64,000 bases of DNA from an uncultured Candidatus Saccharibacteria bacterium (GTDB lineage: Bacteria; Patescibacteriota; Minisyncoccia; Phycocordibacterales; GWA1-40-21), in the NCBI GenBank assembly GCA_964605355.1, contig CAZSCE010000001.1:103-64102 (forward strand). Direction: 5' to 3'. Under the pieces are notes generated by a model that ran no database searches, was not told the DNA's origin, and saw nothing but the letters and a program-made list of their open reading frames with translations. The translations under genes and the position numbers were made by a program. Positions 5,085 to 42,539 of this stretch are shown piece after piece. The stretch's first letter is position 1. Each line of letters opens with the position of its first letter.

Positions 5085-6343
5085 AAATCCGTTTCATTAA
5101 GCATACTGACCTTACCGGTAGCTCTATCTTTCACTTCAAACTCGCCTTTCTCAATTGTTTTCTCGCTGATAATTATTCTAAGAGGGATACCCAGTAAATC
5201 AGCGTCCGCAAACTTTTCTCCGGCCCTAGCCTCCCTATCATCACACAATACCTCTATTCCCTTTTTTTGCAACTTTTTATAAATATCCTCTGTTGCTTCC
5301 TTGGCTTTATCACTATTACCAATATTTAATAAGTGAACAGCAAAAGGCGCAATAGACTTTGGCCAGACAATCCCCACTTCATCAGAAAGTAACTCAACAA
5401 CTGTACCCATTACTCGGCCAGGGCCAATACCATAGCAACCCATCACTACAGATTTCTTTTCACCTTTTTCATTAGGGTAAGTTAAATCTAAAGCATCAGA
5501 AAATTTTGTTCCCAGACTAAATATATTTCCAACCTCTATAGACTTTGCTTCACGCAATTTTTCATTTGCACATTCCGGGCACTTATTTTGTTCCTTGATT
5601 AACTCCTTATTTACGGCCACCAAACATTTATCACAAATATAGATTGTATCCTCACCAGCATCAGATAAGGTCTGAAACTCATGTGAATATTTACTAAAAC
5701 TACCGCCGGAAGCAAAAGTAATATAAGTGCGGTCACCTAGGCCAACACGCTCAAAAACTTTTTTATAAGCTACCTTAGACTTTTCATAAAATTTATCATG
5801 CTCCGCAATATCTTTAGAAAAAGAATATAAATCTTTCATCAGGAATTCTCGGCCACGCATAATACCACTTTTGGCCCTGGTCTCATTTCTAAACTTGGTT
5901 TGGATTTGATATGGATAAACGGGGAGATCTTTATAAGAACGGATATGATTTTTCATCAAAACCGTCAAAGGCTCCTCATGTGTGGCACCCAAACCTAACT
6001 CTGTATCATTTTTTAATTTAGTTTTAAACCAAACATCCATCACTTCATCACTCCAACGGTTAGACTTCTCCCAAGGAGTTTTATCCTGAAGCGCAGTTAG
6101 CTGAAGTTCCTGACCGCCAATAGCATCCATCTCCTCCCTGATGATTTTACAGATATTATTAAGCACTCGGAGACCTAATGGTAAATAGTCATAAACCCCG
6201 GCCATTTCCTTGTTAATAAAACCGCCTTTTATGAGTAATTGAGCGTTTTTGCTCACCTCATCCTTAGGCGCCTCCTTACGAGTCTTTGTTAAAAGTTTTG
6301 ATTGATACATACGCGTATAATAGCGTATTTTAGGAAAATCCAC
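5063..6343 (-). CDS. proS: prolyl-tRNA synthetase, short bacterial form without editing domain
   Basis: The N-terminal region QSKLLTKTRKEAPKDEVSKNAQLLIKGGFI and class II aaRS motifs match ProRS. A C-terminal CPEC...C zinc motif is present. It overlaps the mreB start by 22 nt. Confidence 0.85.
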   Translation of the reverse strand: MDFPKIRYYTRMYQSKLLTKTRKEAPKDEVSKNAQLLIKGGFINKEMAGVYDYLPLGLRVLNNICKIIREEMDAIGGQELQLTALQDKTPWEKSNRWSDEVMDVWFKTKLKNDTELGLGATHEEPLTVLMKNHIRSYKDLPVYPYQIQTKFRNETRAKSGIMRGREFLMKDLYSFSKDIAEHDKFYEKSKVAYKKVFERVGLGDRTYITFASGGSFSKYSHEFQTLSDAGEDTIYICDKCLVAVNKELIKEQNKCPECANEKLREAKSIEVGNIFSLGTKFSDALDLTYPNEKGEKKSVVMGCYGIGPGRVMGTVVELLSDEVGIVWPKSIAPFAVHLLNIGNSDKAKEATEDIYKKLQKKGIEVLCDDREARAGEKFADADLLGIPLRIIISEKTIEKGEFEVKDRATGKVSMLNETDLWNFLKN

Positions 6344-8118: not shown

Positions 8119-8841
8119 TTATAGCACAAGTGCCAGATGTTCCAAAATGACTTTGATGGAGGGTGACTCATCATTGGCATAACTGATGGCTTTCTCAATA
8201 TCTTCAATAGCCAGGAGGCTGCCACTGCGCGCATTATGTGCGTTCTTTACCTTTAGCGTTGATTTAATAACCTTCTCAATATTTTTCAAAAAATTAATAG
8301 CATCACTTTTATTCAGCTTTTCATCTTTTATATCTTTTACAATTTTAGCCACCTGAGTTAAACGCTTCCCCACCTTAGCATTTAGGAATTCTTCAGCTTG
8401 GGCCAGTGGCGTGGCAAACTTACCCTCACCCTTACTAATTATTAATCTGGACTTCAAAGTAGGAAGTAAATCAGAAAATGAGGGGAGAATTAAAAAGAAA
8501 ATAGTATCCGCTCGTGGTTCCTCAAAAATTTTTAATAAAGAATTCTGCGCATCTTTGGTCATAAAATTAGCAGAGATAACAAAAACCTTTCTCTCATACT
8601 TTATGGGCATATTTAAATGCGCTTCATTTATAGCCCGACTATCAATAATTTTAAAAACGTTAAAATCCCCCTGCCAAAAATCCGGATTGTTGGTAACAGG
8701 AAATTTCAAATCCTTCTTTAGGAAATCAAAAAGCTCTTCCTTAACTTTATCCTTGGCCCCTAAAACGCCGTAGGCATGGTGAAGTTGCCCTCGCTTCTTG
8801 TAGTTCTCCCTGATCTGCTTCATAGGTGTAGTATAGCACAC
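8119..8841 (-). CDS. holB: DNA polymerase III delta-prime-like clamp-loader subunit (minimal form)
   Basis: LHHAYGVLG (degenerate P-loop region), NSLLKIFEEP (the NALLKTLEEP box) and LPTLKSRL (SRC-like motif). 240 aa with a truncated C-terminus. Confidence 0.55.
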   Translation of the reverse strand: MCYTTPMKQIRENYKKRGQLHHAYGVLGAKDKVKEELFDFLKKDLKFPVTNNPDFWQGDFNVFKIIDSRAINEAHLNMPIKYERKVFVISANFMTKDAQNSLLKIFEEPRADTIFFLILPSFSDLLPTLKSRLIISKGEGKFATPLAQAEEFLNAKVGKRLTQVAKIVKDIKDEKLNKSDAINFLKNIEKVIKSTLKVKNAHNARSGSLLAIEDIEKAISYANDESPSIKVILEHLALVL

Positions 8842-8912: not shown

Positions 8913-9926
8913 CTAACGTTTTGCTATGATTGATTTCTTATAGACGTCTAAATGTTCCAAAGCAATACCAGTGCCTTTGGCCACACAGTACATAGGATCT
9001 TTAGCAACGGCGGCTTTTACACCAGTTCGGCGGAAAACAAGTTCAGCTAAATTTCTTAATTGAGAAGAACCGCCTGTCATAATTATTCCTTGATCAATAA
9101 TATCAGCGGCCAATTCTGGTGGCGTTTCCTGCAACACATCTTTTATTGCTTTAATCATATCTCGTAATTCCTTGGAGATAGCTTTTACAATTTCATTAGT
9201 TTTTATTTCTGCAGTTCTTGGCAATCCGGACAAAAAGTCTCGGCCTTTTATGGTCATAGTTAATTCCTCTTCCATAGGCACAGCTGAACCAACAACAATT
9301 TTTATTTCCTCCGCGGTTTTATCTCCAATAGCCAAGTTAAAAGTTTTCTTTATATAATCAGCAATAGCATAATCAATTTTATTCCCCGCACACTTTACAG
9401 AAGTTGAAGCCACAATTCCCCCCAAGGAAATCACCGCCACATCCGTGGTCCCTCCACCAATATCCACCACCATATGACCCATGGGCTCCTGAATTGGAAT
9501 ACCGGCACCAATAGCGGCTAAAATAGGTTCTTTCACCACATATGCATTTTTAGCGCCGGCTTTCATGGCGGCTTCTATCACCGCGCGTCTCTCTGTGGAG
9601 GTAACACCGGCCGGTACGGACACCATCACTTCTGGTTTAAATAAATTCCATTTACCAAGTGCCTTATCAATAAAATAACGCAACATGGCCTCAGTCACAC
9701 GGTAATCAGCAATCACACCGTCCTTCATAGGCCGATAAGCAATAATACTGTCCGGAGTTTTACCAAGCATTTTCTTGGCCTCTACCCCCACCGCCAAAAT
9801 TTTATTATCCTGTTCAGATACGGCCACCACAGAAGGTTCAAACAAAACCACCCCTTTACCAGGTAAAAAAACCAGAGTATTAGCCGTTCCTAGGTCAATT
9901 CCAATTTTTTTGGTGAAAAATGACAT
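8913..9926 (-). CDS. second MreB/Mbl-like actin homologue
   Basis: IGIDLGTANTLVF...VVDIGGGTTDVAVISLGGIV...MTGGSSQLRNL are the same actin-fold motifs as in the mreB at 4014..5084. It is a paralog and is not linked to mreCD. Confidence 0.8.
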   Translation of the reverse strand: MSFFTKKIGIDLGTANTLVFLPGKGVVLFEPSVVAVSEQDNKILAVGVEAKKMLGKTPDSIIAYRPMKDGVIADYRVTEAMLRYFIDKALGKWNLFKPEVMVSVPAGVTSTERRAVIEAAMKAGAKNAYVVKEPILAAIGAGIPIQEPMGHMVVDIGGGTTDVAVISLGGIVASTSVKCAGNKIDYAIADYIKKTFNLAIGDKTAEEIKIVVGSAVPMEEELTMTIKGRDFLSGLPRTAEIKTNEIVKAISKELRDMIKAIKDVLQETPPELAADIIDQGIIMTGGSSQLRNLAELVFRRTGVKAAVAKDPMYCVAKGTGIALEHLDVYKKSIIAKR

Positions 9927-9985
9927 ATATTAGCTTTAATATAGCACTTCTTATTTTTTTTACAATCTTATGCTATACTCGCCAT

Positions 9986-11281
9986 ATGAATTTTCAAATT
10001 GAAGGCGGGCACAAATTATCAGGCACAGTAGTAACCAAAACCTCAAAAAATGGGGCCATGGGCGTTATTTGTGCTTCCCTATTAAATAAAGGAAAAACAA
10101 TTATTAAAAACGTGCCTAAAATTGAGGAAGTTTTCAGAATGATAGAAGTTTTAGAAAGTATTGGTGTCTCCGCAAAGTGGAATGACGCTGATTTAGAAAT
10201 ATTACCAGGCAAAATTAATTTAAAAAATATTAATAAAGAAAGTGCGGAGAAAACCCGAAGTATTATTATGCTGATTGGCCCACTGATTCACCTTTTGAAA
10301 AAGTTTTCCTTACCACAACCAGGTGGCTGTAATTTAGGTTCACGAACCTTGAAGCCACATTTATTTGCGTTACAAAAATTTGGTGTACAAATTGAAACTA
10401 AGAAATGTAGTTACAATGTCAGCCGTGGAGCATTACAACCAAATGAAATTATTTTATATGAAAGCGGTGACACCGTGACGGAAAATACCATTATAGCCGC
10501 CGCCTTAATTCCTGGAAAAACCGTTATAAAATATGCTTCTGCCAATTATATGGGGCAGGAAGTTTGTTTCTATTTACAGAAATGTGGAGTAAAGATTGAG
10601 GGTATTGGCACCACCACTATTACTGTTCATGGAGTAAAAGAAATTAATTCTCCAGTCACCTATTATCTATCAGAAGACCCAATTGAGTCTATGTTTTTTA
10701 TTTCTACCGCTATTGTCACTAAATCAAAATTAAAAATAAAACGCTGCCCAATTGATTTTTTGGAACTGGAGCTTTTAAAATTAGAAAAGATGGGTTTGAA
10801 ATATTCCAAATCAAAAGTTTATAAATCATTAAATAAGGAAACAAATTTAGTAGACTTAATTATCTTTTCTTCAAAATTAATAGCCTTGGAGGAGAAAATT
10901 CACCCTAGCGTCTATCCGGGAATAAATATGGATAATTTACCTTTCTTTGCCATTATTGCCACTCAGGCGGAGGGCACTACCTTGATTCATGATTGGCCTT
11001 ATGAAAAAAGAATGATCCATGTCAAAGATATTGATAAGCTGGGTGCTGATACAAACTTGGTTGATTGTCACCGCTTATATATAACTGGTATTACAAAATT
11101 AAAACCAGCGGAAATTATCTGCCCTCCAGCTCTACGCCCCGCCGCTATCCTGCTTATTGGTATGCTAGCTGCCAAAGGCCGCTCCATGCTCAGAAACGTG
11201 TATAGTATTAACCGCGGTTATGAAGATATTGCCCTCCGCCTCAACGCCCTCGGCGCCAAAATAAATATCTTGAAAGATTAG
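9986..11281 (+). CDS. murA: UDP-N-acetylglucosamine 1-carboxyvinyltransferase
   Basis: MNFQIEGGHKLSGTVV...NGAMGVICASLL...CNLGSRTLKPHL...LRPAAILLIGMLAAKG are MurA/EPSP-fold signatures. The start is set at the ATG 9986 (MNFQIEGG), not the track start 9920. A TGnTATACT box sits 10 nt upstream, so the mRNA is leaderless. Confidence 0.9.
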   Translation: MNFQIEGGHKLSGTVVTKTSKNGAMGVICASLLNKGKTIIKNVPKIEEVFRMIEVLESIGVSAKWNDADLEILPGKINLKNINKESAEKTRSIIMLIGPLIHLLKKFSLPQPGGCNLGSRTLKPHLFALQKFGVQIETKKCSYNVSRGALQPNEIILYESGDTVTENTIIAAALIPGKTVIKYASANYMGQEVCFYLQKCGVKIEGIGTTTITVHGVKEINSPVTYYLSEDPIESMFFISTAIVTKSKLKIKRCPIDFLELELLKLEKMGLKYSKSKVYKSLNKETNLVDLIIFSSKLIALEEKIHPSVYPGINMDNLPFFAIIATQAEGTTLIHDWPYEKRMIHVKDIDKLGADTNLVDCHRLYITGITKLKPAEIICPPALRPAAILLIGMLAAKGRSMLRNVYSINRGYEDIALRLNALGAKINILKD

Positions 11282-16571: not shown

Positions 16572-17510
16572 TTAATCAAAAAATACGCCTAAATAATTGT
16601 TGATTTTTCTTTGGTCAAGATCGTAAAAATAATCTCCACTTCTGTGAAGCCTCTCAGCTAAATCAACCCCCACAAAACGCCAATGCCATGGTTCGTAAAC
16701 ATAGTAGGAATTACCTTTAGGATAAGATAATATAAAACCATATTTATAAGCATTTTTATTTAACCAGGTATAAGCCTCAGTTTTATCAAAGGTGTCAAAA
16801 GTGTCCTTTAGAACTGCTGTGGTAAAATCTATAGTAGTACCTAATTGATGTTCTGAATAACCCTGATCAGCAGAAAATTGATTTGCTGTCCCCGCTCCAT
16901 AAATAATATTATAAGTAGATTTCAAGGCTGATTGATCACCAAATGATCTATAAGCTGAGATAACTTTTATATCAATACCATCATCAGTAGCTGCTTTTAG
17001 CATTTTTTCTAAAAAAGGCTCCACCTTCCCATAGAACTGATATTTTTTACCATCTTTGTAAACATATTCACTTGGAATATTATCTAAGGTGGCTGGAGTA
17101 TAATTTTCATTTAAGAAGAAAACCTTGGAATATTTCTGTAGTAATTGCGGATCAACCTTACTTAATTTATCCAGAGCCACCGCGGTATCATTTACTTGCT
17201 CCACCTGATCAAGCAAATCACTAGTCTGACTGATCTGATCCTGCACAGTACTATTTAACAAATTGTTTTGGGCCACAATACCGGTAATTTGTTCCTGCAA
17301 ACCCTGAATAGCCCCGGTAAAGGCAACAGTGGTACTAGCTACTTTTTGATTCTGGATCTCAACTGCTTTTTTCAAGGAATAGTTACGGTACTCACCAAAA
17401 CCTATAATTAAAGCCACTAAAACCACCACCCCCATAGTAATAAACACATGATAAGCGGTAAAAACTCGGTGCATCATATCCCTAAATTTTTTTAATTTTT
17501 CCATAGGCAC
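16572..17510 (-). CDS. VanY-type D-alanyl-D-alanine carboxypeptidase (peptidase M15B), membrane-anchored
   Basis: ISAYRSFGDQ, YSEHQLGTTIDF and EPWHWRF are the three zinc/catalytic motifs of VanY/M15. There is an N-terminal TM helix and a coiled-coil-like Gln-rich linker. Confidence 0.7.
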   Translation of the reverse strand: MPMEKLKKFRDMMHRVFTAYHVFITMGVVVLVALIIGFGEYRNYSLKKAVEIQNQKVASTTVAFTGAIQGLQEQITGIVAQNNLLNSTVQDQISQTSDLLDQVEQVNDTAVALDKLSKVDPQLLQKYSKVFFLNENYTPATLDNIPSEYVYKDGKKYQFYGKVEPFLEKMLKAATDDGIDIKVISAYRSFGDQSALKSTYNIIYGAGTANQFSADQGYSEHQLGTTIDFTTAVLKDTFDTFDKTEAYTWLNKNAYKYGFILSYPKGNSYYVYEPWHWRFVGVDLAERLHRSGDYFYDLDQRKINNYLGVFFD

Positions 17511-17600
17511 ATTATAGCACTTTTTCTCTCCACAAGGAATTCACACTTTATACCCGTATTGGATTTGTGGCTTTTAAAAAACATATGCTAAAATGCCAGC

Positions 17601-19001
17601 ATGTCACAACAAACTGTAAAAAAAAGTGTCACCAGGATTCCCCCAAATAATATTGATTCTGAGCGCGCCCTTTTGGGCTCCATCATGCTCCGGCCAGAAG
17701 CTATTCATGAAATCATGGACATAATTAAGGCTGATGCTTTTTATGCGGAAAAACACCGGATTATTTTTCAGGCGATGGGTGAGATTTTTCAGCGCAATGA
17801 ACCAATTGACCTTCTCACCATTTCTGCCCGTTTGACCGAAAAAAACCAGTTGGATCACACTGGTGGCACCGGCTATCTCACAGAATTAGTGAACTTAGTT
17901 CCCTCATCAGCTAACGCTGAGCATTATGCGGAAATTGTGCAGAAAAAATATGTGATGCGCCAACTGATTGAAGCCTCGGAACATATTTCACTTTTGGGTT
18001 ATGAAGAGGCTGAGGACCTCAGTACCCTGCTTGATTTAGCTGAGAAAAAAATATATGAAGTGACCCAAGGAAAAACTTCTAATAAATTTGTGGAGATTAA
18101 AGATATATTAGCGGAAGCCTGGGAGCGTGCTGATAAATTACATAAGAGTAAAGATGAGCTCCGTGGAATTCCTACCGGCTTTCGTGATTTGGACGCTAAA
18201 CTGTCAGGTCTTCAAAAATCAGATTTAATTATTCTTGCCGCCCGCCCTTCTATGGGAAAAACTTCCCTGGCCCTAGATATTGCCCGCCAGGCCGCTATCA
18301 AACATAATGTTCCTGTTGCTATCTTCTCCTTGGAAATGTCAAACCAGCAATTAGTGGACCGTATGATTGCCGCTGAATCACGAGTGGATTCCTGGAAATT
18401 ACGTACTGGTAAATTAACTTTGGAGAGTGATTTTGACCGTATTCGTGATTCCCTGGGTGTCTTGGCCAAGGCCCCTATCTTTGTGGATGATCAGCCTGCC
18501 AACAATATTTTGAAAATGCGCGGTGTGGTGCGCCGATTAAAAAATGAAAAAGGAATTGGCCTAGTGGTGGTGGACTACCTACAACTCATGGCACCAGTAC
18601 AAAATAAAAATAATGATAATTTGGTTCAGCAAATAACAGAGATTTCCCGCTCGCTAAAGCATTTGGCTCGTGAATTTGATGTGCCGGTATTAGCCCTTTC
18701 CCAGCTTTCTCGTGCGGTGGAACAACGTGGAGGCCGTCCCCGCCTTTCAGACTTACGTGATTCTGGTTCTATTGAGCAGGATGCGGATGTAGTTATGTTT
18801 ATTCACAGTGAAGACAGATATAAAGATGAATCCGAGCATACCAATATTACTGAAATCCTGATTGAAAAGCACAGAAACGGCCCCACCGGTGTGGTACAGC
18901 TGTTCTTTGATAAAAATAAAACCAGCTTTATGGACATTGATAGAAATTCTGATTTCAAGGATTTTGACGGGGCGGCAAAGTCAGATGGTGGCGTGTTTTA
19001 A
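17601..19001 (+). CDS. dnaB: replicative DNA helicase DnaB
   Basis: N-terminal ...IPPNNIDSERALLGSIMLRPEAIHEI..., a RecA-like domain with ARPSMGKTSLALDIA (Walker A) and VVVDYLQLM (Walker B). No intein insertion. Confidence 0.95.
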   Translation: MSQQTVKKSVTRIPPNNIDSERALLGSIMLRPEAIHEIMDIIKADAFYAEKHRIIFQAMGEIFQRNEPIDLLTISARLTEKNQLDHTGGTGYLTELVNLVPSSANAEHYAEIVQKKYVMRQLIEASEHISLLGYEEAEDLSTLLDLAEKKIYEVTQGKTSNKFVEIKDILAEAWERADKLHKSKDELRGIPTGFRDLDAKLSGLQKSDLIILAARPSMGKTSLALDIARQAAIKHNVPVAIFSLEMSNQQLVDRMIAAESRVDSWKLRTGKLTLESDFDRIRDSLGVLAKAPIFVDDQPANNILKMRGVVRRLKNEKGIGLVVVDYLQLMAPVQNKNNDNLVQQITEISRSLKHLAREFDVPVLALSQLSRAVEQRGGRPRLSDLRDSGSIEQDADVVMFIHSEDRYKDESEHTNITEILIEKHRNGPTGVVQLFFDKNKTSFMDIDRNSDFKDFDGAAKSDGGVF

Positions 19002-21352: not shown

Positions 21353-21668
21353 ACTTGATGGCGTCAATTTTGATTTTAAAGAATGGCTGGCGGTGGCCGT
21401 TTTTCTTGAAATAGCGGCTCTTTTGTTTAAAGTGAATAACGGTGATTTTCTGAGCGCGGCCTATTTCCTCTAGGGTAGCCTTTACCTCGGCGCCTTTAAT
21501 GGTAGGGGTGCCAATGGTGGTGTCTTTGCCATTATCTACCAAGAGAACCTGGTCAAAAGTAAGCTTGTCACCTACGGCAAATTTACCGGTGATTTTCTCA
21601 ATTTTAAGAGTATCTCCCACGGAGACTTTATATTGCTTTCCACCTGTTTTTATCACGGCAAATTCCAT
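21351..21668 (-). CDS. rplU: 50S ribosomal protein L21
   Basis: MEFAVIKTGGKQYKVSVGDTLKIEKI...VLLV...KGAEVKATLEEIGRAQKITVIHFKQKSRYFKKNGHRQPFFKIKIDAI is an L21 signature. No L27 gene follows. Confidence 0.9.
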   Translation of the reverse strand: MEFAVIKTGGKQYKVSVGDTLKIEKITGKFAVGDKLTFDQVLLVDNGKDTTIGTPTIKGAEVKATLEEIGRAQKITVIHFKQKSRYFKKNGHRQPFFKIKIDAIK

Positions 21669-21725
21669 AAGGTGTATATTACACGATTTTTAAATAAATG
21701 CAAGAACAAGGCAATAATTGTTTGA

Positions 21726-21802: not shown

Positions 21803-22864
21803 TTATTCTTCCGTCTCTGGGCGGGAAACCTCCAGTAATTCAATGTCTGATTCTACGCCAGTGATGCGCACCACATCTTTATCAATCTTTTTAAATTCTT
21901 TATTGGACGCATTAAAATGATTCACGGTGGTGGCCAGGGCATTACCCAGCTTGCCTTGATACTCCTCAAAGGTCTTTAAATGCTTTTGCAGACCCTCTAC
22001 ATTCTTCCTTATTTCCATAGCACTTTCCTCTATCTGCATAGCCTTTAGGCCCTGCAAAACAGTCTGCAAATAAGCTAAAAATGAAGTGGGTGACACAATT
22101 ATCACCTTGTATTTATTGGCCGCGCGCTGAATTAAATTATCCGTTTCCTCCGTAATAGCCCCAATTTTATTTACCAGTAAATCATAATAAATAGCCTCGT
22201 GCGGGATGAACATAAAGGCAAAATCCATGGTTCCCTCTTTAGGCCGAATATATTTTGAGGTTTCTTGGATGCGTAATTTCAAATCATTTACAAAAGCTTT
22301 TTCCAGCTTTTCTTTTTCCTGTGGATTCTGCTCCACACTTAATTTATTATAATTCTCCAAAGAAAATTTGGAGTCCACGGGGATTATTTTTTCTTTCACA
22401 AAAACGGCGGCGTCCACTATCTCACCATTAGCAAAAGCATATTGCATTTTATATTGCGTGGGTGCTAAAACATTTTGTAAAAGAGTTTCTAGATAATATT
22501 CACCCAGTATTCCGCGGTGCTTTGGGTTCTTTAAAATATCCTGGAGGGACTGGAGCTGATCCGCAAAACTAACTACTTGTTTATTTGTCTCATCTAGTTT
22601 AGTCAGGCCTTGGGTCACATCCTTTATTAACTTAGCTGATTCACTAAACTGATTCCTAACTGATTCATTCATATGCTTGGCATTCTCACTAATTTTACTA
22701 TCCATAGTGCGGGAGAGCTCATTTATCTGCTGTAAAATAAGGTTTAGGCCGGTATCGTCCTTCTTTTCCTCAGCGGGGGTCTTCTTACTATTTATATTTA
22801 GCCAAATAAGAATAGCTAATGCCAGAAAAACTAATATTAAAACAATAATTATAATTATTTCCAT
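21803..22864 (-). CDS. rmuC: DNA recombination protein RmuC
   Basis: N-terminal TM helix, a long coiled coil, then KHRGILGEYYLETLLQNVL (the RmuC RGxxGExxLE motif) and DFAFMFIPHEAIY. The start is set at the internal Met (MEIIIII..., 22864), which lies just behind a perfect TATAAT. The track start at 22978 lies inside the upstream inverted repeat. Confidence 0.8.
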   Translation of the reverse strand: MEIIIIIVLILVFLALAILIWLNINSKKTPAEEKKDDTGLNLILQQINELSRTMDSKISENAKHMNESVRNQFSESAKLIKDVTQGLTKLDETNKQVVSFADQLQSLQDILKNPKHRGILGEYYLETLLQNVLAPTQYKMQYAFANGEIVDAAVFVKEKIIPVDSKFSLENYNKLSVEQNPQEKEKLEKAFVNDLKLRIQETSKYIRPKEGTMDFAFMFIPHEAIYYDLLVNKIGAITEETDNLIQRAANKYKVIIVSPTSFLAYLQTVLQGLKAMQIEESAMEIRKNVEGLQKHLKTFEEYQGKLGNALATTVNHFNASNKEFKKIDKDVVRITGVESDIELLEVSRPETEE

Positions 22865-22939
22865 ATGTAGAGTATTATACCAATTAAAGGCAAAATGTGA
22901 TAGTATTTTAAGTATATAAGCACGGAAGTAAAGATGTTT

Positions 22940-22994: not shown

Positions 22995-23027
22995 CAAACC
23001 TCTCTACTTCCTTAATAATATATTACG

Positions 23028-23483
23028 ATGTCATTACAACAAACTATGCGTGATGGGATAAAGGCAGCCATGATTGCCAAAGATGCAGTCCGGCTAACCG
23101 TGCTCCGTGGCTTGATTTCTGCTTTTACTAATGAATCAGTGGCCAAGGGTAAAACCCCTCAGGATGAATTAGCAGATGAAGATGCTGTAGCAGTTATAAA
23201 GCGCGCGGTCAAACAAAGAAAAGATTCCATTGATCAATTTACCAAAGGCAACAGACTGGATTTGGTGGAGACTGAAAATGCGGAATTAAAAATTTTAGAA
23301 ACTTTCTTGCCGCAAACTATGAGTAAAGAGGACATCAAAAAAATTGCCGAAGCAAAAAAAGCAGAACTGGGCGTTACTGATAAAGCTGGTATGGGTAAAT
23401 TTATGGGCGCGGTGATGAAGGAACTAAAAGGCAAAGCAGATGGTAATGATGTAAAAGAAGTTATAGAAAGCTTGTTTAATTAA
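23028..23483 (+). CDS. yqeY: GatB/YqeY domain protein
   Basis: 151 aa, all-helical, with MRDGIKAAMIAKDAVRLTVLRGLISAF...AELKILETFLPQ...EDIKKIAEAKKAELGVTDKAGMGKFMGAVMKELKGKADG typical of YqeY. Confidence 0.8.
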   Translation: MSLQQTMRDGIKAAMIAKDAVRLTVLRGLISAFTNESVAKGKTPQDELADEDAVAVIKRAVKQRKDSIDQFTKGNRLDLVETENAELKILETFLPQTMSKEDIKKIAEAKKAELGVTDKAGMGKFMGAVMKELKGKADGNDVKEVIESLFN

Positions 23484-23759: not shown

Positions 23760-23889
23760 AAGATAAGGAGGTTATCGAAGGTCTATTTAGCTAGAATACT
23801 CTAACTTGACAAAACACAATCTTATATTATATACTATAGTCTGGTCTTTAACGTAAACGTAGTATAAACTTCAAAAAATAGGGGGAGAC

Positions 23890-24126
23890 GTGAGTGGATA
23901 TGAACAGCTGGCTCATGAAGCAATGGAGCTTGTAAGAACAGGCGGGTTTTCTCACGAGGTGGCAGCAAAAATGATCTGTCGGTTGAAAGAGATTGTACCA
24001 AGGAATGGTCCCAAGAAGGTATTGAAAGAAATGGAGATACTGTTAAGGGGCCCGGCTCATCCAAGGACAAATCTACGGCAGGAGTCTATTAACCATCAAC
24101 TCCAAAGGGTTGATATATACGGCTAG
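23890..24126 (+). CDS. hypothetical small protein on a G+C-elevated cassette with its own promoter, GTG start and terminator
   Basis: TTGACA (23806..23811), an 18-nt spacer, TATACT (23830..23835), an AGGGGGAGA RBS 4 nt before the GTG at 23890, then an intrinsic terminator. Base composition is visibly richer in G+C than the flanks. Confidence 0.4.
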   Translation: MSGYEQLAHEAMELVRTGGFSHEVAAKMICRLKEIVPRNGPKKVLKEMEILLRGPAHPRTNLRQESINHQLQRVDIYG

Positions 24127-24132
24127 GATCCC

Positions 24133-24175
24133 AAAGGGTGCTCTCGCAACACGACCGAGCACCCTTTTCTAATTT
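24133..24175 (+). terminator. intrinsic terminator AAGGGTGCTC-loop-GAGCACCCTT then TTTCTAATTTT
   Basis: 10-bp stem followed by a T-run, directly after the 23890..24126 ORF. Confidence 0.7.
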
Positions 24176-24210
24176 TGAAAATTTCATAATTAATGCTATA
24201 TTTTCACCAC

Positions 24211-24283
24211 GGCCCTATCGTCTATCGGTTAGGACGGAGCCTTCTCAAGGCTCAAAGCGCGGTTCGATTCCGCGTAGGGTCAC
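24211..24283 (+). tRNA. tRNA-Glu (anticodon CTC)
   Basis: Manual cloverleaf: acceptor GGCCCTA/TAGGGTC, U8, D-arm GTCT-ATCGGTTA-GGAC, anticodon arm GAGCC-TTCTCAA-GGCTC (anticodon CTC at 34-36, U33, A37), a 4-nt variable loop, T-arm CGCGG-TTCGATT-CCGCG and discriminator A. CCA is not encoded. Confidence 0.75.
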
Positions 24284-30616: not shown

Positions 30617-31015
30617 CTATCGATTCTTTAATTCAATTTCTTCCTTAAGTAGATCAAATTTAATGATAAAATTATCAAAGAACCCGTTCTGTCCAACAAG
30701 CCCAAAAGGCATAACCCTTCCTGACACATCAGGCATAAAACCGGCTTCTATTTTACATGGCCAGCCACCCACCTCAATTTCAATACTATGAAGATAGTAT
30801 GGTGATGATTTGCCCCCTACTCCCGTAACAGCCATCATCTTCCCTTTCATAATGTCTAATCCTAACGCCTCACCAATTTCTGCATCAAAAATACAAAGAT
30901 CTGCACCAGAATCTACTAATACTTCATAAACGATAGAGACGTCACCCTTTTTTAATTTTATTGGTATTACTGGGCGGAGAACGTTATTACCATAACGTTT
31001 ATAATCAAATTTCAC
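30617..31015 (-). CDS. retropepsin-like (clan AA) aspartic protease
   Basis: VLVDSGADLCIF is the hydrophobic-hydrophobic-D-S/T-G-A motif. The distal NFIIKFDLL is the retropepsin dimer-interface-type motif. 132 aa. Confidence 0.6.
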   Translation of the reverse strand: MKFDYKRYGNNVLRPVIPIKLKKGDVSIVYEVLVDSGADLCIFDAEIGEALGLDIMKGKMMAVTGVGGKSSPYYLHSIEIEVGGWPCKIEAGFMPDVSGRVMPFGLVGQNGFFDNFIIKFDLLKEEIELKNR

Positions 31016-31206
31016 AAAGAGCCAACGAAGGCCGTTAAATTTTCAGGCATTCTGGTTAAAATAGGTTTTTCATCACTTTTTTTAGTTGCCTTTAATAAGG
31101 CTTCTTTTACGGTTTTTCCCACACCAAGAACCGTCACCTCATCTGATGCTAATGCTACCCACATACCCTTGTATTTCTTATATATTTTTGACCAATCTTT
31201 TCTCAT
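31012..31206 (-). CDS. small partner protein of the aspartic protease (DUF5678-like KGxWVAL motif), leaderless
   Basis: MRKDWSKIYKKYKGMWVALASDEVTVLGVGKTVKEALLKA... It overlaps the protease gene start by 4 nt. The start is moved to the Met at 31206 because the track start (31242) lies inside the -35 box. Confidence 0.45.
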   Translation of the reverse strand: MRKDWSKIYKKYKGMWVALASDEVTVLGVGKTVKEALLKATKKSDEKPILTRMPENLTAFVGSL

Positions 31207-31212
31207 ATTTTT

Positions 31213-31242
31213 AGTATACCACTTCTCACAACGACACGTCAA
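31213..31242 (-). promoter_or_regulatory. sigma70-type promoter TTGACG-N18-TATACT ending 6 nt before the ATG (leaderless transcript)
   Basis: On the minus strand the sequence reads TTGACGtgtcgttgtgagaagtggTATACTaaaaatATG. No Shine-Dalgarno sequence is possible in the 6-nt gap. Confidence 0.55.
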
Positions 31243-32248: not shown

Positions 32249-33709
32249 TTATTTCTTAGGCTTTAAAAGTGGGAAAATTTGGCAGTCACGGACGGGTTTA
32301 TCCATAAGGAAGCTGAAAAGGCGCTCGGAAATACCAAAGCCAAAGGTGGGGGGCATACCGTGCTCTAGGGCCTCCACAAAAGAAGTGTCGTTCATCTGGG
32401 CCTCAAGATCCCCGGCCTCTCGTAATTTAGCTTGATCAGCAAAACGGCCAGCCTGATCCACTGGGTCATTTAATTCTGAGAAACCTTTACCCATTTCTGA
32501 ACCGGCTAATATTATTTGGAATCTCTCCACTAATTCTGGATTCTTTTCCACCCTCTTGGCCAAAGGCTCCATCATCACCGGCACATTTATCAAAAAACCG
32601 GGACCGGCAATCTGTTTACGGCAATATTTCCAAAGGTTATCCACCGCCCTGGTCAAGTTAAAACCGTTCTTGCTATCATACTCCACCTTTAATTCTCGTA
32701 ATTTATTTTCAACCGTTTTTAAATCAGCCTGGCCAATATCCACCCCGGTTTTATCTTTTATAATTTCCGTAAAATCATATATTTCCCACTTCTGGCCTAA
32801 ATCAATATCAAAACCTTTTATTTTAAATTTTAAAGTGTTAAAAGTTTTCTCCGCAATATATTTATACATTTCCTCGGTAAATTTCATCCCCTCTTCATAA
32901 TTTGAATAAGCCTCATAACACTCCATCTGGGTATAATCTTGCAAATGTTCGGCATCCATCCCTTCATTTCTAAAAATCCTACCAATCTCAAATACTTTGG
33001 GAAATCCGGCTACCATCAAGCGCTTTAGCCATAATTCTGGAGAGATACGTAAATAAACATCCATATCCAGGGCATTGTGATGAGTAATAAAAGGTTTGGC
33101 CTCCGCTCCACCGGTGGTGTTTTCTAAAATAGGAGTTTCTACTTCCATAAAACCTTTGTCTAACAAAAACTGACGAGTGGCGGACCAGAATTTGGACCTT
33201 TTTTCTATCATGTCTTTCACCTCGGGATTAAAAATAATATCTAAATATCTTTTGCGTAGCCTCTCTTCTTCATCCTGTAAACCATCCCATTTATCCGGCA
33301 AAGGACGCAAACTTTTGGCTAGCATTTTCCAGCCTACTACCTGTAATGTCTGCTGACCTTTCTTGGTTACAAATAATTTTCCGGTAATTTCCACAAAGTC
33401 ACCAATATCCACTGTGTTTACAAATAAATCAAAAATATCAGCCTCCATCTCATCCTTCTTCAGGAGACCCTGAAAGGTGGCCGTACCATCATTTATATTA
33501 AAGAAAATAATGGCGCCCTGTCCGCGGATAGCCATCACCCGGCCGGCCAAAATAACACTTTTCTTTTCAGTCAGTTTTTCAAAACTTTCTATTACCTCAC
33601 TCAGAAAATATTCTTTGTCAGTTTTAGCTGGAAAAGGATTCAGACCTTTCTCCTGAAGCATTTTCAGCTTATCAATCCGGATTTTTCTTATTTCATCAAT
33701 TGAAGACAT
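32249..33709 (-). CDS. lysS: lysyl-tRNA synthetase (class II)
   Basis: An N-terminal OB anticodon-binding domain and a class II core with FRNEG (motif 2) and a GxGxxR motif 3 region. 486 aa. Confidence 0.9.
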   Translation of the reverse strand: MSSIDEIRKIRIDKLKMLQEKGLNPFPAKTDKEYFLSEVIESFEKLTEKKSVILAGRVMAIRGQGAIIFFNINDGTATFQGLLKKDEMEADIFDLFVNTVDIGDFVEITGKLFVTKKGQQTLQVVGWKMLAKSLRPLPDKWDGLQDEEERLRKRYLDIIFNPEVKDMIEKRSKFWSATRQFLLDKGFMEVETPILENTTGGAEAKPFITHHNALDMDVYLRISPELWLKRLMVAGFPKVFEIGRIFRNEGMDAEHLQDYTQMECYEAYSNYEEGMKFTEEMYKYIAEKTFNTLKFKIKGFDIDLGQKWEIYDFTEIIKDKTGVDIGQADLKTVENKLRELKVEYDSKNGFNLTRAVDNLWKYCRKQIAGPGFLINVPVMMEPLAKRVEKNPELVERFQIILAGSEMGKGFSELNDPVDQAGRFADQAKLREAGDLEAQMNDTSFVEALEHGMPPTFGFGISERLFSFLMDKPVRDCQIFPLLKPKK

Positions 33710-33733
33710 TAGACAAAAATTATATCACATTTA

Positions 33734-34272: not shown

Positions 34273-35988
34273 TTATTTGAGATATTCCGGTTTATTGAGG
34301 GCAATATAATCCATCACTTGACGCATGACAGAGGTGGCACCCATGGTATTAGCCACCGGTCCTTTCTCCATAATAATTACAAAAGCATATTTAGGATTTT
34401 CATACGGAAAAAATCCGGACACCCAGGAATTTATAAACTGTTTATAAACTCCCAATTCAGCGGTACCCGTTTTAGCGGCCACGGAATATTTTGGGGAGTT
34501 TAGTCCCTTGACCACGCCGTAATCTTTTATCACGCCGTCCAGCATACCATCACGCACAATTTTTAAATAATCTTGATTTAAATTTAAATCCTGCACAGAG
34601 TCAGCGGATAATGGCTGATCTAGCAAAACCGTGGGTTCAATTAATTTACCACCATTAGCCAAGGCGGAAACAGCACGCAGGAGTTGAATGGGTGCCACTT
34701 GAAAACCATACTGACCAATAGAGGTGTGATAAGTGTTTCCCACGCGCCAATCCGGATCATCAGGAAAAGTGACCGCTTTCCAATCCGGAGTAGGTATTAC
34801 TCCCGCCGGTCCGGAAAAAAATGGTGAAGTCATAGGTTTTGAAAAACCAAACAGCTTCATATATTTATCAATATTTAAGATACCCAAACCTTTTTGATCT
34901 TCAAAACCACCGCCCACCTCATAAAAATAAACGTCAGAAGAAACCGCGAGGGCTTTTTTCATATCCACATAACCATGCGCCTTCCAGTCTTTAAAAATTG
35001 TTGGCTTGTCCGGATTATAAGGGTTTGGTAATGTCAGCGCCCCACTACTGAAAATATTAGTATAGGGATCAATTATATTTTCATTTTGCGCCGCGTAGGC
35101 CATATATGGCTTTATGGTGGATCCTGGTGTATATAAACCATCAATTATTCTATCCAAAAAAGGATTATTTTTATTACTCAGATAACTATTAATCATGGTT
35201 TTGTTTTGACCGTCAGTGAGAATTTGTGGGCTATATTCCGGATAACTGGTCAACGCTAATATCTGGCCATTAGTAATGTCCATAATCACCCCGGCGCCAC
35301 CGGAAAAGCCGGCATTAGTAGCCAGACTTTTTATCTCTTGGTACATTTTATTCTGAATTCCAGCCACCACAGAAAGCTTTAAGTCTTCACCGTCTACTGG
35401 TGTATGAATAATATTTTCAGATTGCGTTTCCCCCATAGCGTCCACTTCCACAATCCTCCTACCATTCTCACCGGACAAAATATCATTGTAATACTTTTCC
35501 ACTCCGTCTATACCACTAAAAACATCAGAATAATAAAAACCATATTTATCTTTTGATGGATATTTTAAATAACCAAGTAAATGAGCAAAACCATCCAAGG
35601 GAATATATTTACGAAGATCAAAGGCATTATCAATTGTATTTTCACTATTCCAAACCAGCTTTGTTCCCTCCCGGTCATATATCACGCCACGCTTGGCAAA
35701 AATAAGGGAGTTTCTCAGGCGGTTTTTTTCACTTTTAGCAAAATAACCATCACCATTACTAATTTGTAAATTACCAATTCTAAACATAAAAACAACAATG
35801 ATCACCGCCACCACACCAGCTAAAATAAAAATACTACGGCGAGAGATAGATTTCTCCAGCCGGCCTTCAAACTGATTAGTATCAAAGTTTGGTAAATTTT
35901 CCGAGTCAATAAAAATCTCATCCGGATCAATGGCTTTTTCTCGTCTGTCATATTTAATTCCCTGGCGCCTACGGCCAAATCTCATCAT
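34273..35988 (-). CDS. mrdA: penicillin-binding protein 2-type transpeptidase
   Basis: TM anchor and a transpeptidase domain with STIKP (SxxK) and KTGTAE. It is a second PBP, distinct from ftsI. Confidence 0.8.
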   Translation of the reverse strand: MMRFGRRRQGIKYDRREKAIDPDEIFIDSENLPNFDTNQFEGRLEKSISRRSIFILAGVVAVIIVVFMFRIGNLQISNGDGYFAKSEKNRLRNSLIFAKRGVIYDREGTKLVWNSENTIDNAFDLRKYIPLDGFAHLLGYLKYPSKDKYGFYYSDVFSGIDGVEKYYNDILSGENGRRIVEVDAMGETQSENIIHTPVDGEDLKLSVVAGIQNKMYQEIKSLATNAGFSGGAGVIMDITNGQILALTSYPEYSPQILTDGQNKTMINSYLSNKNNPFLDRIIDGLYTPGSTIKPYMAYAAQNENIIDPYTNIFSSGALTLPNPYNPDKPTIFKDWKAHGYVDMKKALAVSSDVYFYEVGGGFEDQKGLGILNIDKYMKLFGFSKPMTSPFFSGPAGVIPTPDWKAVTFPDDPDWRVGNTYHTSIGQYGFQVAPIQLLRAVSALANGGKLIEPTVLLDQPLSADSVQDLNLNQDYLKIVRDGMLDGVIKDYGVVKGLNSPKYSVAAKTGTAELGVYKQFINSWVSGFFPYENPKYAFVIIMEKGPVANTMGATSVMRQVMDYIALNKPEYLK

Positions 35989-36007
35989 AGGAAGATTCTA
36001 ACATTCA

Positions 36008-38017: not shown

Positions 38018-38101
38018 TTGATTTGTGATTATGATACATTTTGAGAGGAAAAGCAAGAAAGGTTCGTGGCTAAATAAACAACAACATGTGGGGGTTTTAC
38101 A

Positions 38102-39740: not shown

Positions 39741-39782
39741 TAGATTTACTATATTACATTATTTTATGATATAATCCACTCC

Positions 39783-42496: not shown

Positions 42497-42539
42497 GTTT
42501 ATAATTCTACCATATTTTTAATATTTATTGTATAATTGA

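What the first reader, a model, noticed from the sequence alone, without database searches (positions are those of the whole stretch)
9968..9988. Recurrent leaderless-mRNA architecture: TATACT -10 box 6-10 nt before the start codon, with no Shine-Dalgarno sequence
At least five genes show an (extended) -10 box immediately followed by the initiation codon:
- murA: TGCTATACTcgccatATG at 9968..9988.
- rmuC: TATAATactctacatATG, start 22864.
- The protease cassette: TTGACG-N18-TATACTaaaaatATG, start 31206.
- dnaX: TATACTacattcATG, start 58367.
- lexA operon: TATACT after TTGACG-N17.

UvrB and topA show CATAAT/CATACT-like boxes about 10 nt upstream. This implies widespread leaderless translation initiation. 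In three cases it also corrects the longest-ORF starts in the track, which fall inside promoter elements.
Basis: partly seen in the sequence, partly recalled or inferred. Interest (0 to 1): 0.5.

Follow-up and report, generated by a model that had tools for sequence, protein, structure and literature searches.

The report
Leaderless gene starts in CPR bacterium
In this ultra-small (Patescibacteria/CPR) bacterium, many genes have a promoter -10 box exactly 6-9 bases before the ATG and no ribosome-binding site, so their mRNAs most likely begin at the start codon; the mechanism is known from other bacteria, but I found no description of it for this group, and it affects how gene starts are called there.

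Summary
Four of the five quoted sites (murA, rmuC, the DUF5678/aspartyl-protease cassette, dnaX) read TGnTATA(A/C)T, then 6 or 9 nt, then ATG. I found ten more like them. TGNTANNNT-N6-ATG occurs 11 times against 3.1±1.5 expected, and 10 of the 11 open an ORF. No Shine-Dalgarno signal appears before any class of gene.

The fifth example, the lexA operon, is a real promoter with an SOS box in its spacer. It has a leader of about 115 nt, so it is not leaderless.

The window comes from a Parcubacteria/Paceibacteria-type CPR genome. In 740 kb from 130 related loci the same motif peaks sharply 6 nt before ATG, never before GTG or TTG, across 31 protein families. At dnaX, 42 of 48 relatives keep the box at 6-9 nt while the spacer sequence drifts. 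Distant GC-rich homologues lack the box, and some carry an SD-like motif.

Best reading: extended -10 promoters that mostly lack a -35 element start transcription at the A of AUG. Other genes use A-rich, SD-free upstreams.

This is the known "leaderless" genome class. It fits the reported loss of the anti-SD in about half of Parcubacteria. No transcript 5'-end data exist to prove it.

The parts
9971..9988 (+). murA: TGCTATACT, 6 nt, ATG (extended -10 box abutting the start codon)
   Evidence: NCBIfam murA aligns from residue 2-3. Close relatives L001 and L015 have the same layout.
8821..8838 (-). holB-like (DNA pol III delta') gene: TGCTATACT, 6 nt, ATG 8823
   Evidence: Orthologues in L007, L002, L003, L012, L026 and L028 keep TG(n)TATAMT 6-7 nt before ATG.
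17502..17519 (-). VanY-like carboxypeptidase: TGCTATAAT, 6 nt, ATG 17504
   Evidence: The public gene call on an identical contig gives 310 aa, which matches this ATG.
17586..17603 (+). dnaB: TGCTAAAAT, 6 nt, ATG 17601 (divergent from the VanY promoter)
22862..22882 (-). rmuC: TGGTATAAT, 9 nt, ATG 22864
   Evidence: Pfam RmuC 8e-50.
31204..31242 (-). DUF5678 ORF (64 aa) heading the aspartyl-protease cassette: TTGACG, N18 (TGG), TATACT, 6 nt, ATG 31206
33707..33727 (-). lysS: TGATATAAT, 9 nt, ATG 33709; the promoter fits inside a 24-nt intergenic gap
35986..36003 (-). mrdA (PBP2): TGTTAGAAT, 6 nt, ATG 35988; starts 5 nt after the uvrB stop
39767..39785 (+). LOG-family gene: TGATATAAT, 7 nt, ATG 39783
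42494..42512 (-). YkwD-like gene: TGGTAGAAT, 7 nt, ATG 42496
46550..46567 (-). 77-aa ORF downstream of lexA: TGATATAGT, 6 nt, ATG 46552
49297..49314 (-). pgl-like gene: TGCTAAGAT, 6 nt, ATG 49299
56162..56179 (-). 101-aa ORF: TGTTATAAT, 6 nt, ATG 56164
58365..58382 (-). dnaX: TGCTATACT, 6 nt, ATG 58367, directly after an intrinsic terminator (58446..58408)
   Evidence: 42 of 48 related loci keep a -10 box 6-9 nt before the orthologous ATG.
6308..6322 (-). Class II aaRS gene (likely proS): non-extended TATTAT, 6 nt, ATG 6310 (weaker candidate)
21666..21681 (-). Gene read by eye as rplU (L21): TAATAT, 7 nt, ATG 21668 (non-extended candidate)
23016..23030 (+). YqeY-like gene: TAATAT, 6 nt, ATG 23028 (non-extended candidate, divergent from rmuC)
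39738..39753 (-). tgt: TATAGT, 7 nt, ATG 39740 (non-extended candidate)
59871..59886 (-). Dihydrouridine-synthase-like gene: TATAGT, 7 nt, ATG 59873 (non-extended candidate)
   Evidence: Orthologues appear among the leaderless hits in relatives.
9924..9946 (-). mreB: TGCTATATT, 11 nt, ATG 9926 (predicted 4-5 nt leader)
   Evidence: About 60 orthologues have a TAnnnT box mostly 8-12 nt before ATG.
38015..38033 (-). uvrB: CATAAT, 10 nt, ATG 38017 (near-consensus box, short leader at most)
63098..63119 (+). topA: TGCCATACT, 10 nt, ATG 63117
47528..47556 (-). Counter-example. lexA-operon promoter TTGACG-N17-TATACT with GAAC-N4-GTTC (47548..47537) in the spacer. It is leadered: the first ATG (71-aa ORF) is at 47405.
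   Evidence: LexA identified at 47162..46593.

Best explanation
The window belongs to a Patescibacteria (CPR) genome of the Parcubacteria/Paceibacteria type. In this genome many transcription units are expressed as leaderless mRNAs.

A sigma-70-type extended -10 promoter (TGnTAnnnT, usually with no recognisable -35) sits so that its hexamer ends 6 nt before the ATG, less often 7-9 nt. RNA polymerase normally starts 7 bp after the hexamer, so the transcript should begin with the A of AUG, or with 1-3 extra bases. Ribosomes would then initiate on the 5'-terminal AUG without Shine-Dalgarno pairing.

About 14 of 65 genes here have the strong form and about 8-15 more have a weaker form. That is probably 40-50% of transcription units.

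The remaining genes are either operon-internal (often with overlapping or 1-10-nt stop-start junctions) or leadered. They also lack SD sequences and instead have A-rich, G-poor upstream regions. SD-independent initiation therefore appears to be the rule in this genome.

- **Shown:** the motif, its spacing, its enrichment, its restriction to ATG, its conservation across relatives, and the absence of SD.
- **Inferred:** the position of the transcription start and the leaderless mode of translation.
For: **Sites and enrichment.**
- The sites are verified.
- Counts are enriched against shuffles and against other spacings.
- In the window, spacing 6 occurs 8 times, 7 twice and 9 five times, against about 1 at other spacings.

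**Relatives.**
- In 538 kb from 80 related genomes the counts are d=6: 46, d=7: 17, d=8: 16, d=9: 12, against about 3 elsewhere.
- In 203 kb of related metagenome contigs they are d=6: 31 and d=7: 12.
- The peak is ATG-only: 46 for ATG, 0 for GTG, 1 for TTG.
- There are 139 instances in 89 of 130 loci, spread over 31 protein families.
- At dnaX, 42 of 48 relatives have the box at 6-9 nt (31 at exactly 6) with unrelated spacer sequences. Among distant homologues (about 40% identity, GC 66%), 22 of 24 lack a good box (the other two have one at 9 and 11 nt), and 6 of 24 have an SD-like 4-mer (e.g. L131, L132, L158).
- The holB-like, frr, priA, mreB and HTH-murA orthologues show the same pattern.

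**No SD.**
- GGAG, GAGG and AGGA show no positional peak.
- Only 4 of 65 genes carry any SD-like 4-mer.
- Genes without the box have 62-71% A at positions -9, -8, -6, -5 and -2.

**Promoter identity.**
- TGn is present in 14 cases, and TTGACG sits at 18 bp in one case.
- The same box with TTGACA-N17 precedes a terminator-bounded unit that contains only a 10-codon ORF and carries no start codon next to the box.
- It occurs with an SOS box upstream of the lexA operon.
- It lies 8 nt before the mature 5' end of tRNA-Glu.
- It is absent from 21 tightly coupled genes (0 of 21 against 14 of 44, p=0.003).

**Starts supported by homology.** murA, lysS, uvrB, tgt and dnaX. dnaB is identified by the same searches, and its profile match begins at residue 14.

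**Literature.**
- The TSS lies 7 bp after the -10 element across 49 bacteria (PMC12641261).
- In leaderless 'group C' genomes the Pribnow box lies 6-8 nt from starts (PMC6028130).
- The anti-SD motif was detectable in only 48% of Parcubacteria 16S rRNAs (PMC9297842).
Against: - No RNA 5'-end, ribosome-profiling or N-terminal peptide data exist for this organism. The only CPR TSS set I found (N. lyticus) was inferred indirectly from RNA-seq coverage.
- The 16S rRNA is not in the window or in any fetched locus. Loss or retention of the anti-SD in this genome is therefore untested.
- Several of the promoters lie only 5-40 nt behind the preceding same-strand gene. Read-through transcripts could also carry these genes with a leader.
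- Spacings of 9-11 nt (rmuC, lysS, mreB, uvrB, topA) predict 2-5-nt leaders rather than none.
- A few SD-like strings do occur before tiny or small ORFs: AAAGGGGG-N6-ATG at about 58812, AGGGGGAG-N5-GTG at 23877, and the aconitase/IDH island. SD pairing may therefore not be entirely obsolete.
- Non-extended TAnnnT boxes are common in AT-rich spacers, so the outer count (31 of 65) contains chance hits.
Confidence: 0.8

Rival explanations
1. The TAnnnT box is a translation signal rather than a promoter. It would be a non-canonical ribosome-binding site in leadered mRNAs, for example pairing with an altered 16S 3' tail. It sits at a typical SD distance (5-9 nt) from the start codon.
For: The distance of 6-9 nt equals typical SD spacing. 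Canonical SDs are absent. Some Parcubacteria lack the canonical anti-SD. The 16S tail of this genome is unknown.
Against: - The motif has the signature of sigma-70 recognition, not of contiguous base pairing: invariant T-12, A-11 and T-7, a variable middle, and TG at -15/-14.
- It is missing from 21 operon-internal genes, which would need an RBS just as much.
- The same motif, with -35 hexamers at 17-18 bp, occurs where no start codon follows: the small unit at 58863..58895, the lexA operon and tRNA-Glu.
- The peak is ATG-only, whereas SD-led starts tolerate GTG and TTG.
- A structured RNA in the window carries a perfect complement of the canonical 16S tail, which hints that the tail is canonical.
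Confidence: 0.04
2. The boxes are real promoters, but the mRNAs are not truly leaderless. Either transcription starts a few bases upstream of the ATG and gives very short leaders, or most expression comes from upstream read-through transcripts. Translation would then use the same A-rich, SD-independent mechanism as the other genes.
For: Spacings of 9-11 nt exist (rmuC, lysS, mreB, uvrB, topA). Promoters are embedded 5-40 nt after upstream genes with no terminator between them. An SD-free, A-rich initiation mode clearly exists for other genes in the same genome.
Against: - The dominant spacing is exactly 6 nt in the window and in relatives (77 of 139 instances). With the 7-bp rule this puts +1 on the A of ATG.
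- The spacer in d=6 promoters is not A-rich (cgccat, acacct, gccagc, cttcct), unlike the upstream regions of leadered genes.
- dnaX follows a strong terminator directly, so read-through is unlikely there.
- Leaders of 5 nt or less are conventionally counted as leaderless anyway.
Confidence: 0.12
3. It is a compositional artefact. AT-rich intergenic DNA produces TAnnnT hexamers near starts by chance, and start codons were chosen to fit them.
For: Genome GC is about 39%. Non-extended TAnnnT occurs at 2-5% per position upstream of starts. Some starts were curated with knowledge of the box.
Against: - The enrichment tests do not depend on curated starts.
- The peak is one to two positions wide, specific to ATG, and repeated in 740 kb of independent related sequence.
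- Orthologous conservation holds at fixed, homology-defined N-termini.
Confidence: 0.02

Closest known systems
Bacterial genomes rich in leaderless genes (GeneMarkS-2 'group C': Actinobacteria such as Mycobacterium, Streptomyces and Corynebacterium; Deinococcus-Thermus)
   Same: A Pribnow -10 box lies 6-8 nt before the start codon of the first gene of an operon, with no SD at those genes. An estimated 25-50% of operons are leaderless (PMC6028130). The window shows the same geometry and a similar fraction.
   Different: - The lineage is Patescibacteria/Parcubacteria, with low GC.
- The remaining genes here do not use SD sites either, whereas in group C they are modelled with an RBS.
- The TGn extension is frequent and the -35 is usually absent.
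- Only ATG occurs at the d=6 peak; mycobacteria also use GTG (my own knowledge).
SD-poor Bacteroidota/FCB genomes (GeneMarkS-2 'group B', A-rich 'Kozak-like' upstream signals)
   Same: SD is absent genome-wide and the upstream regions of leadered and internal genes are A-rich and G-poor (group B description).
   Different: Group B is defined by the same non-SD motif before all genes and negligible leaderless transcription. Here a promoter box, not an RBS-like motif, sits before a large share of first genes.
Extended -10 (TGnTATAAT) promoters of sigma-70-family holoenzymes
   Same: TG lies one base upstream of the hexamer and the -35 is dispensable (my own knowledge of the E. coli galP1 type and of Gram-positive promoters). 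Of the 14 strong cases, all have TGn, one has a 5/6 match to TTGACA, and the rest match in 4/6 positions or fewer.
   Different: Here the promoter is fused to the start codon, so TG-to-ATG forms a complete 18-nt expression signal. It fits into 19-25-nt intergenic gaps.
Archaeal leaderless transcription (GeneMarkS-2 'group D')
   Same: The mRNA starts at or next to the start codon, and a promoter element lies at a fixed distance from the gene start.
   Different: The archaeal signal is a TATA/BRE box about 26 nt upstream. Here it is a bacterial -10 box about 10 nt upstream.

Membership tests
Bacterial leaderless genes / 'group C' genome | -10 (Pribnow) box at a fixed short distance (hexamer end 6-8 nt) upstream of the start codon of first genes in operons | tested here: met
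   14 extended -10 cases (d=6 in 10, d=7 in 2, d=9 in 2). The peak at d=6 also appears in relatives.
Bacterial leaderless genes / 'group C' genome | Transcription start coincides with the start codon (5' UTR of 0 to about 5 nt) | not testable with these tools
   No RNA 5'-end data. It is inferred from the 7-bp distance between the -10 element and the TSS.
Bacterial leaderless genes / 'group C' genome | No Shine-Dalgarno sequence before these genes | tested here: met
   no SD-like 4-mer before any of the 14, and no positional SD peak overall.
Bacterial leaderless genes / 'group C' genome | Start codon at the 5' end is AUG (GUG tolerated in some taxa) | tested here: met
   at d=6 there are 46 ATG, 0 GTG and 1 TTG (murA loci), and 31, 1 and 0 (dnaX loci).
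Bacterial leaderless genes / 'group C' genome | Other genes (operon-internal or leadered) use an SD-type RBS | tested here: not met
   those genes have A-rich, G-poor upstream regions and no SD. In this respect the genome resembles group B.
Extended -10 sigma-70 promoters | TG dinucleotide at -15/-14, one base upstream of a TAnnnT hexamer | tested here: met
Extended -10 sigma-70 promoters | Promoter activity without a -35 element | not testable with these tools
   One of the 14 has a 5/6 match to TTGACA and the others match in 2-4 of 6 positions. Activity was not measured.
LexA-regulated (SOS) promoter, Gram-positive-type box | GAAC-N4-GTTC palindrome overlapping the promoter of the lexA transcription unit | tested here: met
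   GAACgagcGTTC at 47548..47537, between the -35 and -10 elements. LexA is identified. Binding was not tested.

The most novel reading that the evidence does not exclude
In this Parcubacteria-type lineage SD/anti-SD pairing would have been given up for ordinary gene expression. Two SD-free modes would replace it: an 18-nt 'TGnTAnnnT-N6-ATG' leaderless cassette, and A-rich junctions.

The canonical 16S 3' tail would nevertheless be retained, because it is the target of a conserved, structured small RNA next to dnaX (58622..58459, minus strand). The single-stranded 5' arm of that RNA is a perfect 17-19-nt complement of the tail. The RNA could act as a regulator or sponge of 30S subunits, or as a 16S 3'-end maturation factor.
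Probability: 0.1. Interest if true: 0.75.

Novelty: new member of a known kind. Interest (0 to 1): 0.45.

Why it matters
- **Gene calling.** CPR/Patescibacteria genomes are known almost only from metagenomes, and their genes are called automatically. Longest-ORF rules or SD-trained models misplace starts here: at least 9 starts in this 64-kb window move, several out of promoter elements.
- **Link to ribosome studies.** The result gives a concrete answer to what might replace SD-led initiation in the Parcubacteria subgroup whose 16S lacks a detectable anti-SD motif (PMC9297842). It ties that loss to a promoter architecture.
- **Genome compaction.** The 18-nt promoter-plus-start cassette is about the most compact expression signal possible, which suits streamlined genomes.
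- **Practical use.** The cassette is directly useful for designing expression constructs in the few Patescibacteria that can now be manipulated genetically.
- **Testability.** The prediction can be checked with one 5'-end-enriched metatranscriptome.

None of this changes the known repertoire of initiation mechanisms.

Tried and rejected
- **rRNA in the window.** Rfam at gathering threshold found only two tRNAs and no rRNA. A search for 16S 3'-domain strings in all 162 fetched loci found none. The anti-SD could therefore not be read.
- **Source contig.** The look-up of encoding contigs found nothing for the 830-aa ClpB-like protein. For DnaB it found only 1.6-2.9-kb contigs, so no larger source contig was available to walk to an rRNA operon.
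- **SRP RNA upstream of dnaX.** I considered that the non-coding units upstream of dnaX might be SRP RNA (ffs-dnaX synteny). Rfam gave no SRP hit even at E<=1 and nothing in 20 related loci. The first unit does not fold into a 4.5S-like hairpin.
- **CC2171 hit.** The Rfam CC2171 match (24.5 bits against a gathering score of 75) rests only on the SD-like string plus the terminator. Rejected as homology.
- **tmRNA for the second unit.** I considered this by eye. ARAGORN finds no tmRNA in the window.
- **More members of the second unit.** A covariance model built from the window and L083 copies found no further members in 51 sources.
- **lexA promoter as leaderless.** Rejected.
- **Literature.** Searches pairing 'leaderless' with Patescibacteria, candidate phyla radiation, Saccharibacteria, TM7x, Nanosynbacter and Parcubacteria returned no paper describing leaderless genes in CPR. 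The N. lyticus transcriptome paper is not held.
Full report
**What is at the coordinates.** The quoted strings are all present.
- murA: TGCTATACT-cgccat-ATG, 9971..9988 (+).
- rmuC: TGGTATAAT-actctacat-ATG, 22882..22862 (-).
- The 64-aa ORF heading the 'protease cassette': TTGACG-N18-TATACT-aaaaat-ATG, 31242..31204 (-).
- dnaX: TGCTATACT-acattc-ATG, 58382..58365 (-).

All four carry the TGn extension of an extended -10 promoter. Gene identities were checked:
- murA, dnaX, lexA and uvrB by NCBIfam.
- RmuC by Pfam (8e-50).
- The cassette as DUF5678 plus a retropepsin-like aspartyl protease.
- topA was recognised only from its N-terminal sequence.

The fifth example is different. TTGACG-N17-TATACT at 47556..47528 (-) is a textbook promoter with a GAAC-N4-GTTC SOS box in its spacer. 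The first ORF (71 aa) starts 122 nt downstream at 47405. lexA itself (ATG 47162) has its own TGCTATAAT 26 nt upstream. The lexA operon is therefore leadered.

uvrB (CATAAT, 10 nt) and topA (TGcCATACT, 10 nt) are as described. They predict short leaders at most.

**Is it more than chance?**
- The fixed pattern TGNTANNNT-N6-ATG occurs 11 times on both strands, against 3.09±1.52 in dinucleotide-preserving shuffles. No shuffle of 100 reached 11.
- Ten of the 11 sit at the 5' end of an ORF of 64-571 aa.
- Without using any curated starts, ATGs preceded by TGNTANNNT at 5-10 nt open an ORF of at least 100 aa in 17 of 33 cases, against 329 of 1845 otherwise (odds ratio 4.9, p=1.5e-5). With the stricter TGNTAYAMT the figure is 8 of 10. 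Spacings of 11-34 nt show nothing.
- The spacing histogram has 8 cases at 6 nt, 2 at 7 and 5 at 9.
- About eight more genes have a non-extended TAnnnT at 6-7 nt. These include tgt, a YqeY-like gene, a class II aaRS gene (likely proS), a ZupT-like gene, a dihydrouridine-synthase-like gene and a gene I read as rplU.
- Over a curated list of 65 genes, 14 have the extended form and 31 have any TAnnnT at 5-9 nt. The second figure includes chance hits.

**Where the window comes from, and whether the feature is general.** The MurA protein finds relatives of 59-84% identity. All are in MAGs labelled Parcubacteria, Paceibacterota, Taylorbacteria, Patescibacteria or 'uncultured Ca. Saccharibacteria'. 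The source is therefore a CPR bacterium of the Parcubacteria/Paceibacteria type, with GC about 39%.

In 538 kb around murA from 80 such genomes, the distance from TGNTANNNT to an ORF-opening ATG peaks at 6 nt (46 cases). It falls through 7 (17), 8 (16) and 9 (12) to a background of about 3.

In 203 kb around dnaX from related metagenome contigs the peak is 31 at 6 nt and 12 at 7 nt. The peak does not exist for GTG or TTG (0 and 1 against 46). It is also absent from the distant GC-rich dnaX loci.

The 139 instances fall in 89 of 130 loci and 31 protein families.

At single orthologous genes the box position is conserved while the spacer sequence is not. For dnaX, 42 of 48 related loci have a good -10 box 6-9 nt before the homology-defined Met (31 at exactly 6). 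Examples are TGTTATACTgtctgcATG, TGATATACTgagctcATG and TGCTATAATctctttATG. Of 24 distant homologues, 22 have no such box. Six carry an SD-like 4-mer, for example caggaggcggcagATG and ataaggagaaagtATG.

The holB-like, frr, priA and mreB orthologues behave alike; mreB mostly has 8-12 nt. This is what selection on the promoter-to-ATG distance predicts.

**No Shine-Dalgarno anywhere.**
- GGAG, GAGG and AGGA show no positional enrichment 4-15 nt upstream of likely starts, in the window or in the relatives.
- Only 4 of 65 genes have any SD-like 4-mer, all of them just AGGA.
- Genes without the -10 box have 62-71% A at -9, -8, -6, -5 and -2 and almost no G.
- Many follow the previous gene by -26 to +13 nt.

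The genome therefore combines leaderless first genes with SD-free, A-rich initiation or coupling elsewhere. This agrees with Tsurumaki et al. 2022 (PMC9297842). They detected the anti-SD motif in only 48% of Parcubacteria 16S rRNAs and inferred that SD helices do not form in that subgroup. I could not read this organism's 16S.

**Why the box is a promoter and not an odd ribosome-binding site.**
- The conserved positions are those of sigma-70 recognition: TG at -15/-14, T-12, A-11 and T-7, with a variable middle.
- A -35 hexamer at 17-18 bp accompanies it in several places where no start codon follows:
  - TTGACA-N17-TGCTATACT before a terminator-bounded unit of about 110 nt upstream of dnaX.
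  - The lexA operon.
  - TTGACA-N18-TATACT at 23807.
- TGCTATATT lies 8 nt before the mature 5' G of tRNA-Glu.
- None of the 21 genes that follow their neighbour by 13 nt or less has the extended box, against 14 of the other 44 (p=0.003). An RBS would be needed there too.
- The restriction to ATG fits the known dependence of leaderless initiation on a 5'-terminal AUG (my own knowledge). It does not fit SD-led initiation.

**Mechanism.** Across 49 bacteria the TSS centres 7 bp after the -10 element (PMC12641261). With six bases between the hexamer and the ATG, the seventh base, the A of ATG, is +1. The d=6 class is 10 of 14 here and 77 of 139 in relatives. It should therefore give mRNAs that begin with AUG. 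The d=7-9 class should give 1-3-nt leaders, and the d=10-11 class (mreB, uvrB, topA) 4-5 nt.

Because an extended -10 promoter needs no -35, the stretch from TG to ATG is a complete 18-nt expression signal. It fits in very short gaps: the lysS promoter lies in a 24-nt spacer, and the mrdA promoter begins 5 nt after the uvrB stop. The TSS position and the translation mode are inferences; nothing here measures RNA.

**Start-codon corrections.** Homology supports 9986 and 58367:
- NCBIfam murA aligns from residue 2-3.
- Close relatives start with MNFQIEGG.
- DnaX orthologues start M-x-x-x-ALYRKYRP.

Further corrections are 8841->8823, 17510->17504 (a public gene call agrees), 6343->6310, 38056->38017, 11287->11308 and 63078->63117.

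**Comparison with what is known.** The architecture is that of GeneMarkS-2 'group C' genomes (Actinobacteria, Deinococcus-Thermus). There the Pribnow box lies 6-8 nt from the starts of first genes, and 25-50% of operons are leaderless (PMC6028130). It differs in lineage, in the frequent TGn extension and missing -35, and in that the other genes do not use SD sites. That last trait belongs to the Bacteroidota-type 'group B'.

Full-text searches pairing 'leaderless' with Patescibacteria, candidate phyla radiation, Saccharibacteria/TM7x, Nanosynbacter or Parcubacteria found no description of leaderless genes in CPR. The only CPR TSS set cited (N. lyticus) was inferred from RNA-seq coverage.

I therefore rate it a new member of a known kind. 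It is solid and lineage-wide, and useful for annotation and for interpreting anti-SD loss. It is not a new mechanism.

**Side observations.** The most intriguing lies between the dihydrouridine-synthase-like gene and dnaX, where there are two terminator-bounded non-coding units.
- The second unit (core 58622..58459, minus strand) begins with AGAAAGGAGGTGATCCAAT. This is a perfect complement of the canonical 16S 3' tail, and no start codon follows it. It continues into a multi-helix structure.
- The unit is conserved in the related contig L083, with 6 compensatory base-pair changes between just the two sequences.
- Three further relatives keep AGGAGGTGAT at the same place upstream of dnaX, while everything around it differs.
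- No Rfam family matches, and a covariance model finds no other copy.

Its function is unknown. It suggests that the 16S tail is canonical in this lineage even though genes do not use it.

Noticed in passing
window 58459..58622 (minus strand); terminator 58408..58446; homologue L083:1865-2034: A structured, terminator-bounded non-coding unit lies just upstream of the dnaX promoter. Its 5' arm, AGAAAGGAGGTGATCCAAT (58621..58603), is a perfect complement of the canonical 16S rRNA 3' tail, in a genome whose genes show no SD. No start codon follows it. It is conserved in L083 with 6 compensatory pairs. L082, L087 and L107 keep AGGAGGTGAT at the same place upstream of dnaX. There is no Rfam family match. 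Function unknown; possibilities are a 16S-tail binder or a regulatory leader.
   Followed up: partly
window 58730..58895 (minus strand): A small transcription unit with a canonical TTGACA-N17-TGCTATACT promoter. It is about 110 nt long and ends in the terminator GGGCAGTTCC-TTCT-GGAACTGCCC plus a T-run. It contains AAAGGGGG-N6-ATG and a 10-codon ORF (MEGPSENHIG). The L083 counterpart has AAGGAGGG-N7-ATG and MARDGP. It is not a 4.5S/SRP-like hairpin and has no Rfam hit.
   Followed up: partly
window 47405..47556 and 47160..47197 (minus strand): The lexA operon promoter carries a Gram-positive-type SOS box (GAACgagcGTTC) between -35 and -10. A leader of about 115 nt containing a hairpin follows, then an unannotated 71-aa ORF (47405..47190) ahead of lexA. 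lexA also has its own TGCTATAAT 26 nt upstream.
   Followed up: partly
L002-L006, L010, L013, L017, L041, L052 and most other murA loci, against window 9986: In most related genomes MurA carries an in-frame N-terminal HTH (XRE-type) domain of 70-87 aa (for example ...GITQEEFAKKLGTTQSAVARIEKGEQNLTTEM...). Several of these fused genes look leaderless themselves: in L003, L010 and L041 an extended -10 box lies 6-7 nt before the ATG. The window and its closest relatives (L001, L015, L007) lack the domain and start at the MurA core.
   Followed up: partly
window 24195..24212 (+) and 56563..56576 (-); tRNAs in related loci: tRNA-Glu has TGCTATATT only 8 nt before its mature 5' G. tRNA-Gln has TATAAA 7 nt before its 5' end. 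Among 30 tRNAs in the window and related loci, extended -10-like boxes cluster 8-10 nt upstream (6 cases). This suggests very short or absent 5' leaders on some tRNA transcripts.
   Followed up: partly
window about 48600..52700: A GC-rich island (0.49 against about 0.38 elsewhere) encodes aconitase (50646..52637 -) and an isocitrate/isopropylmalate dehydrogenase (49390..50571 -). These are two of the four genes in the window with an SD-like 4-mer (AGGA) upstream, in a purine-rich AAAGGA context. They look like a horizontal acquisition from an SD-using donor.
   Followed up: no
window 23807..24160 (+): A TTGACA-N18-TATACT promoter is followed by AGGGGGAG-N5-GTG and a 78-aa ORF (23890..24123, no Pfam hit), then a terminator. 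This is one of the rare SD-like contexts in the window. AGGAGGTTATCGAAGGTCT at 23766 resembles the 5' arm of the RNA at 58622.
   Followed up: no
window 30617..31206 (minus strand): A two-gene cassette: a DUF5678 protein (64 aa) overlaps by 4 nt a retropepsin-like aspartyl protease (132 aa, GTG start). It is expressed from the only leaderless promoter here that has a good -35 (TTGACG).
   Followed up: no
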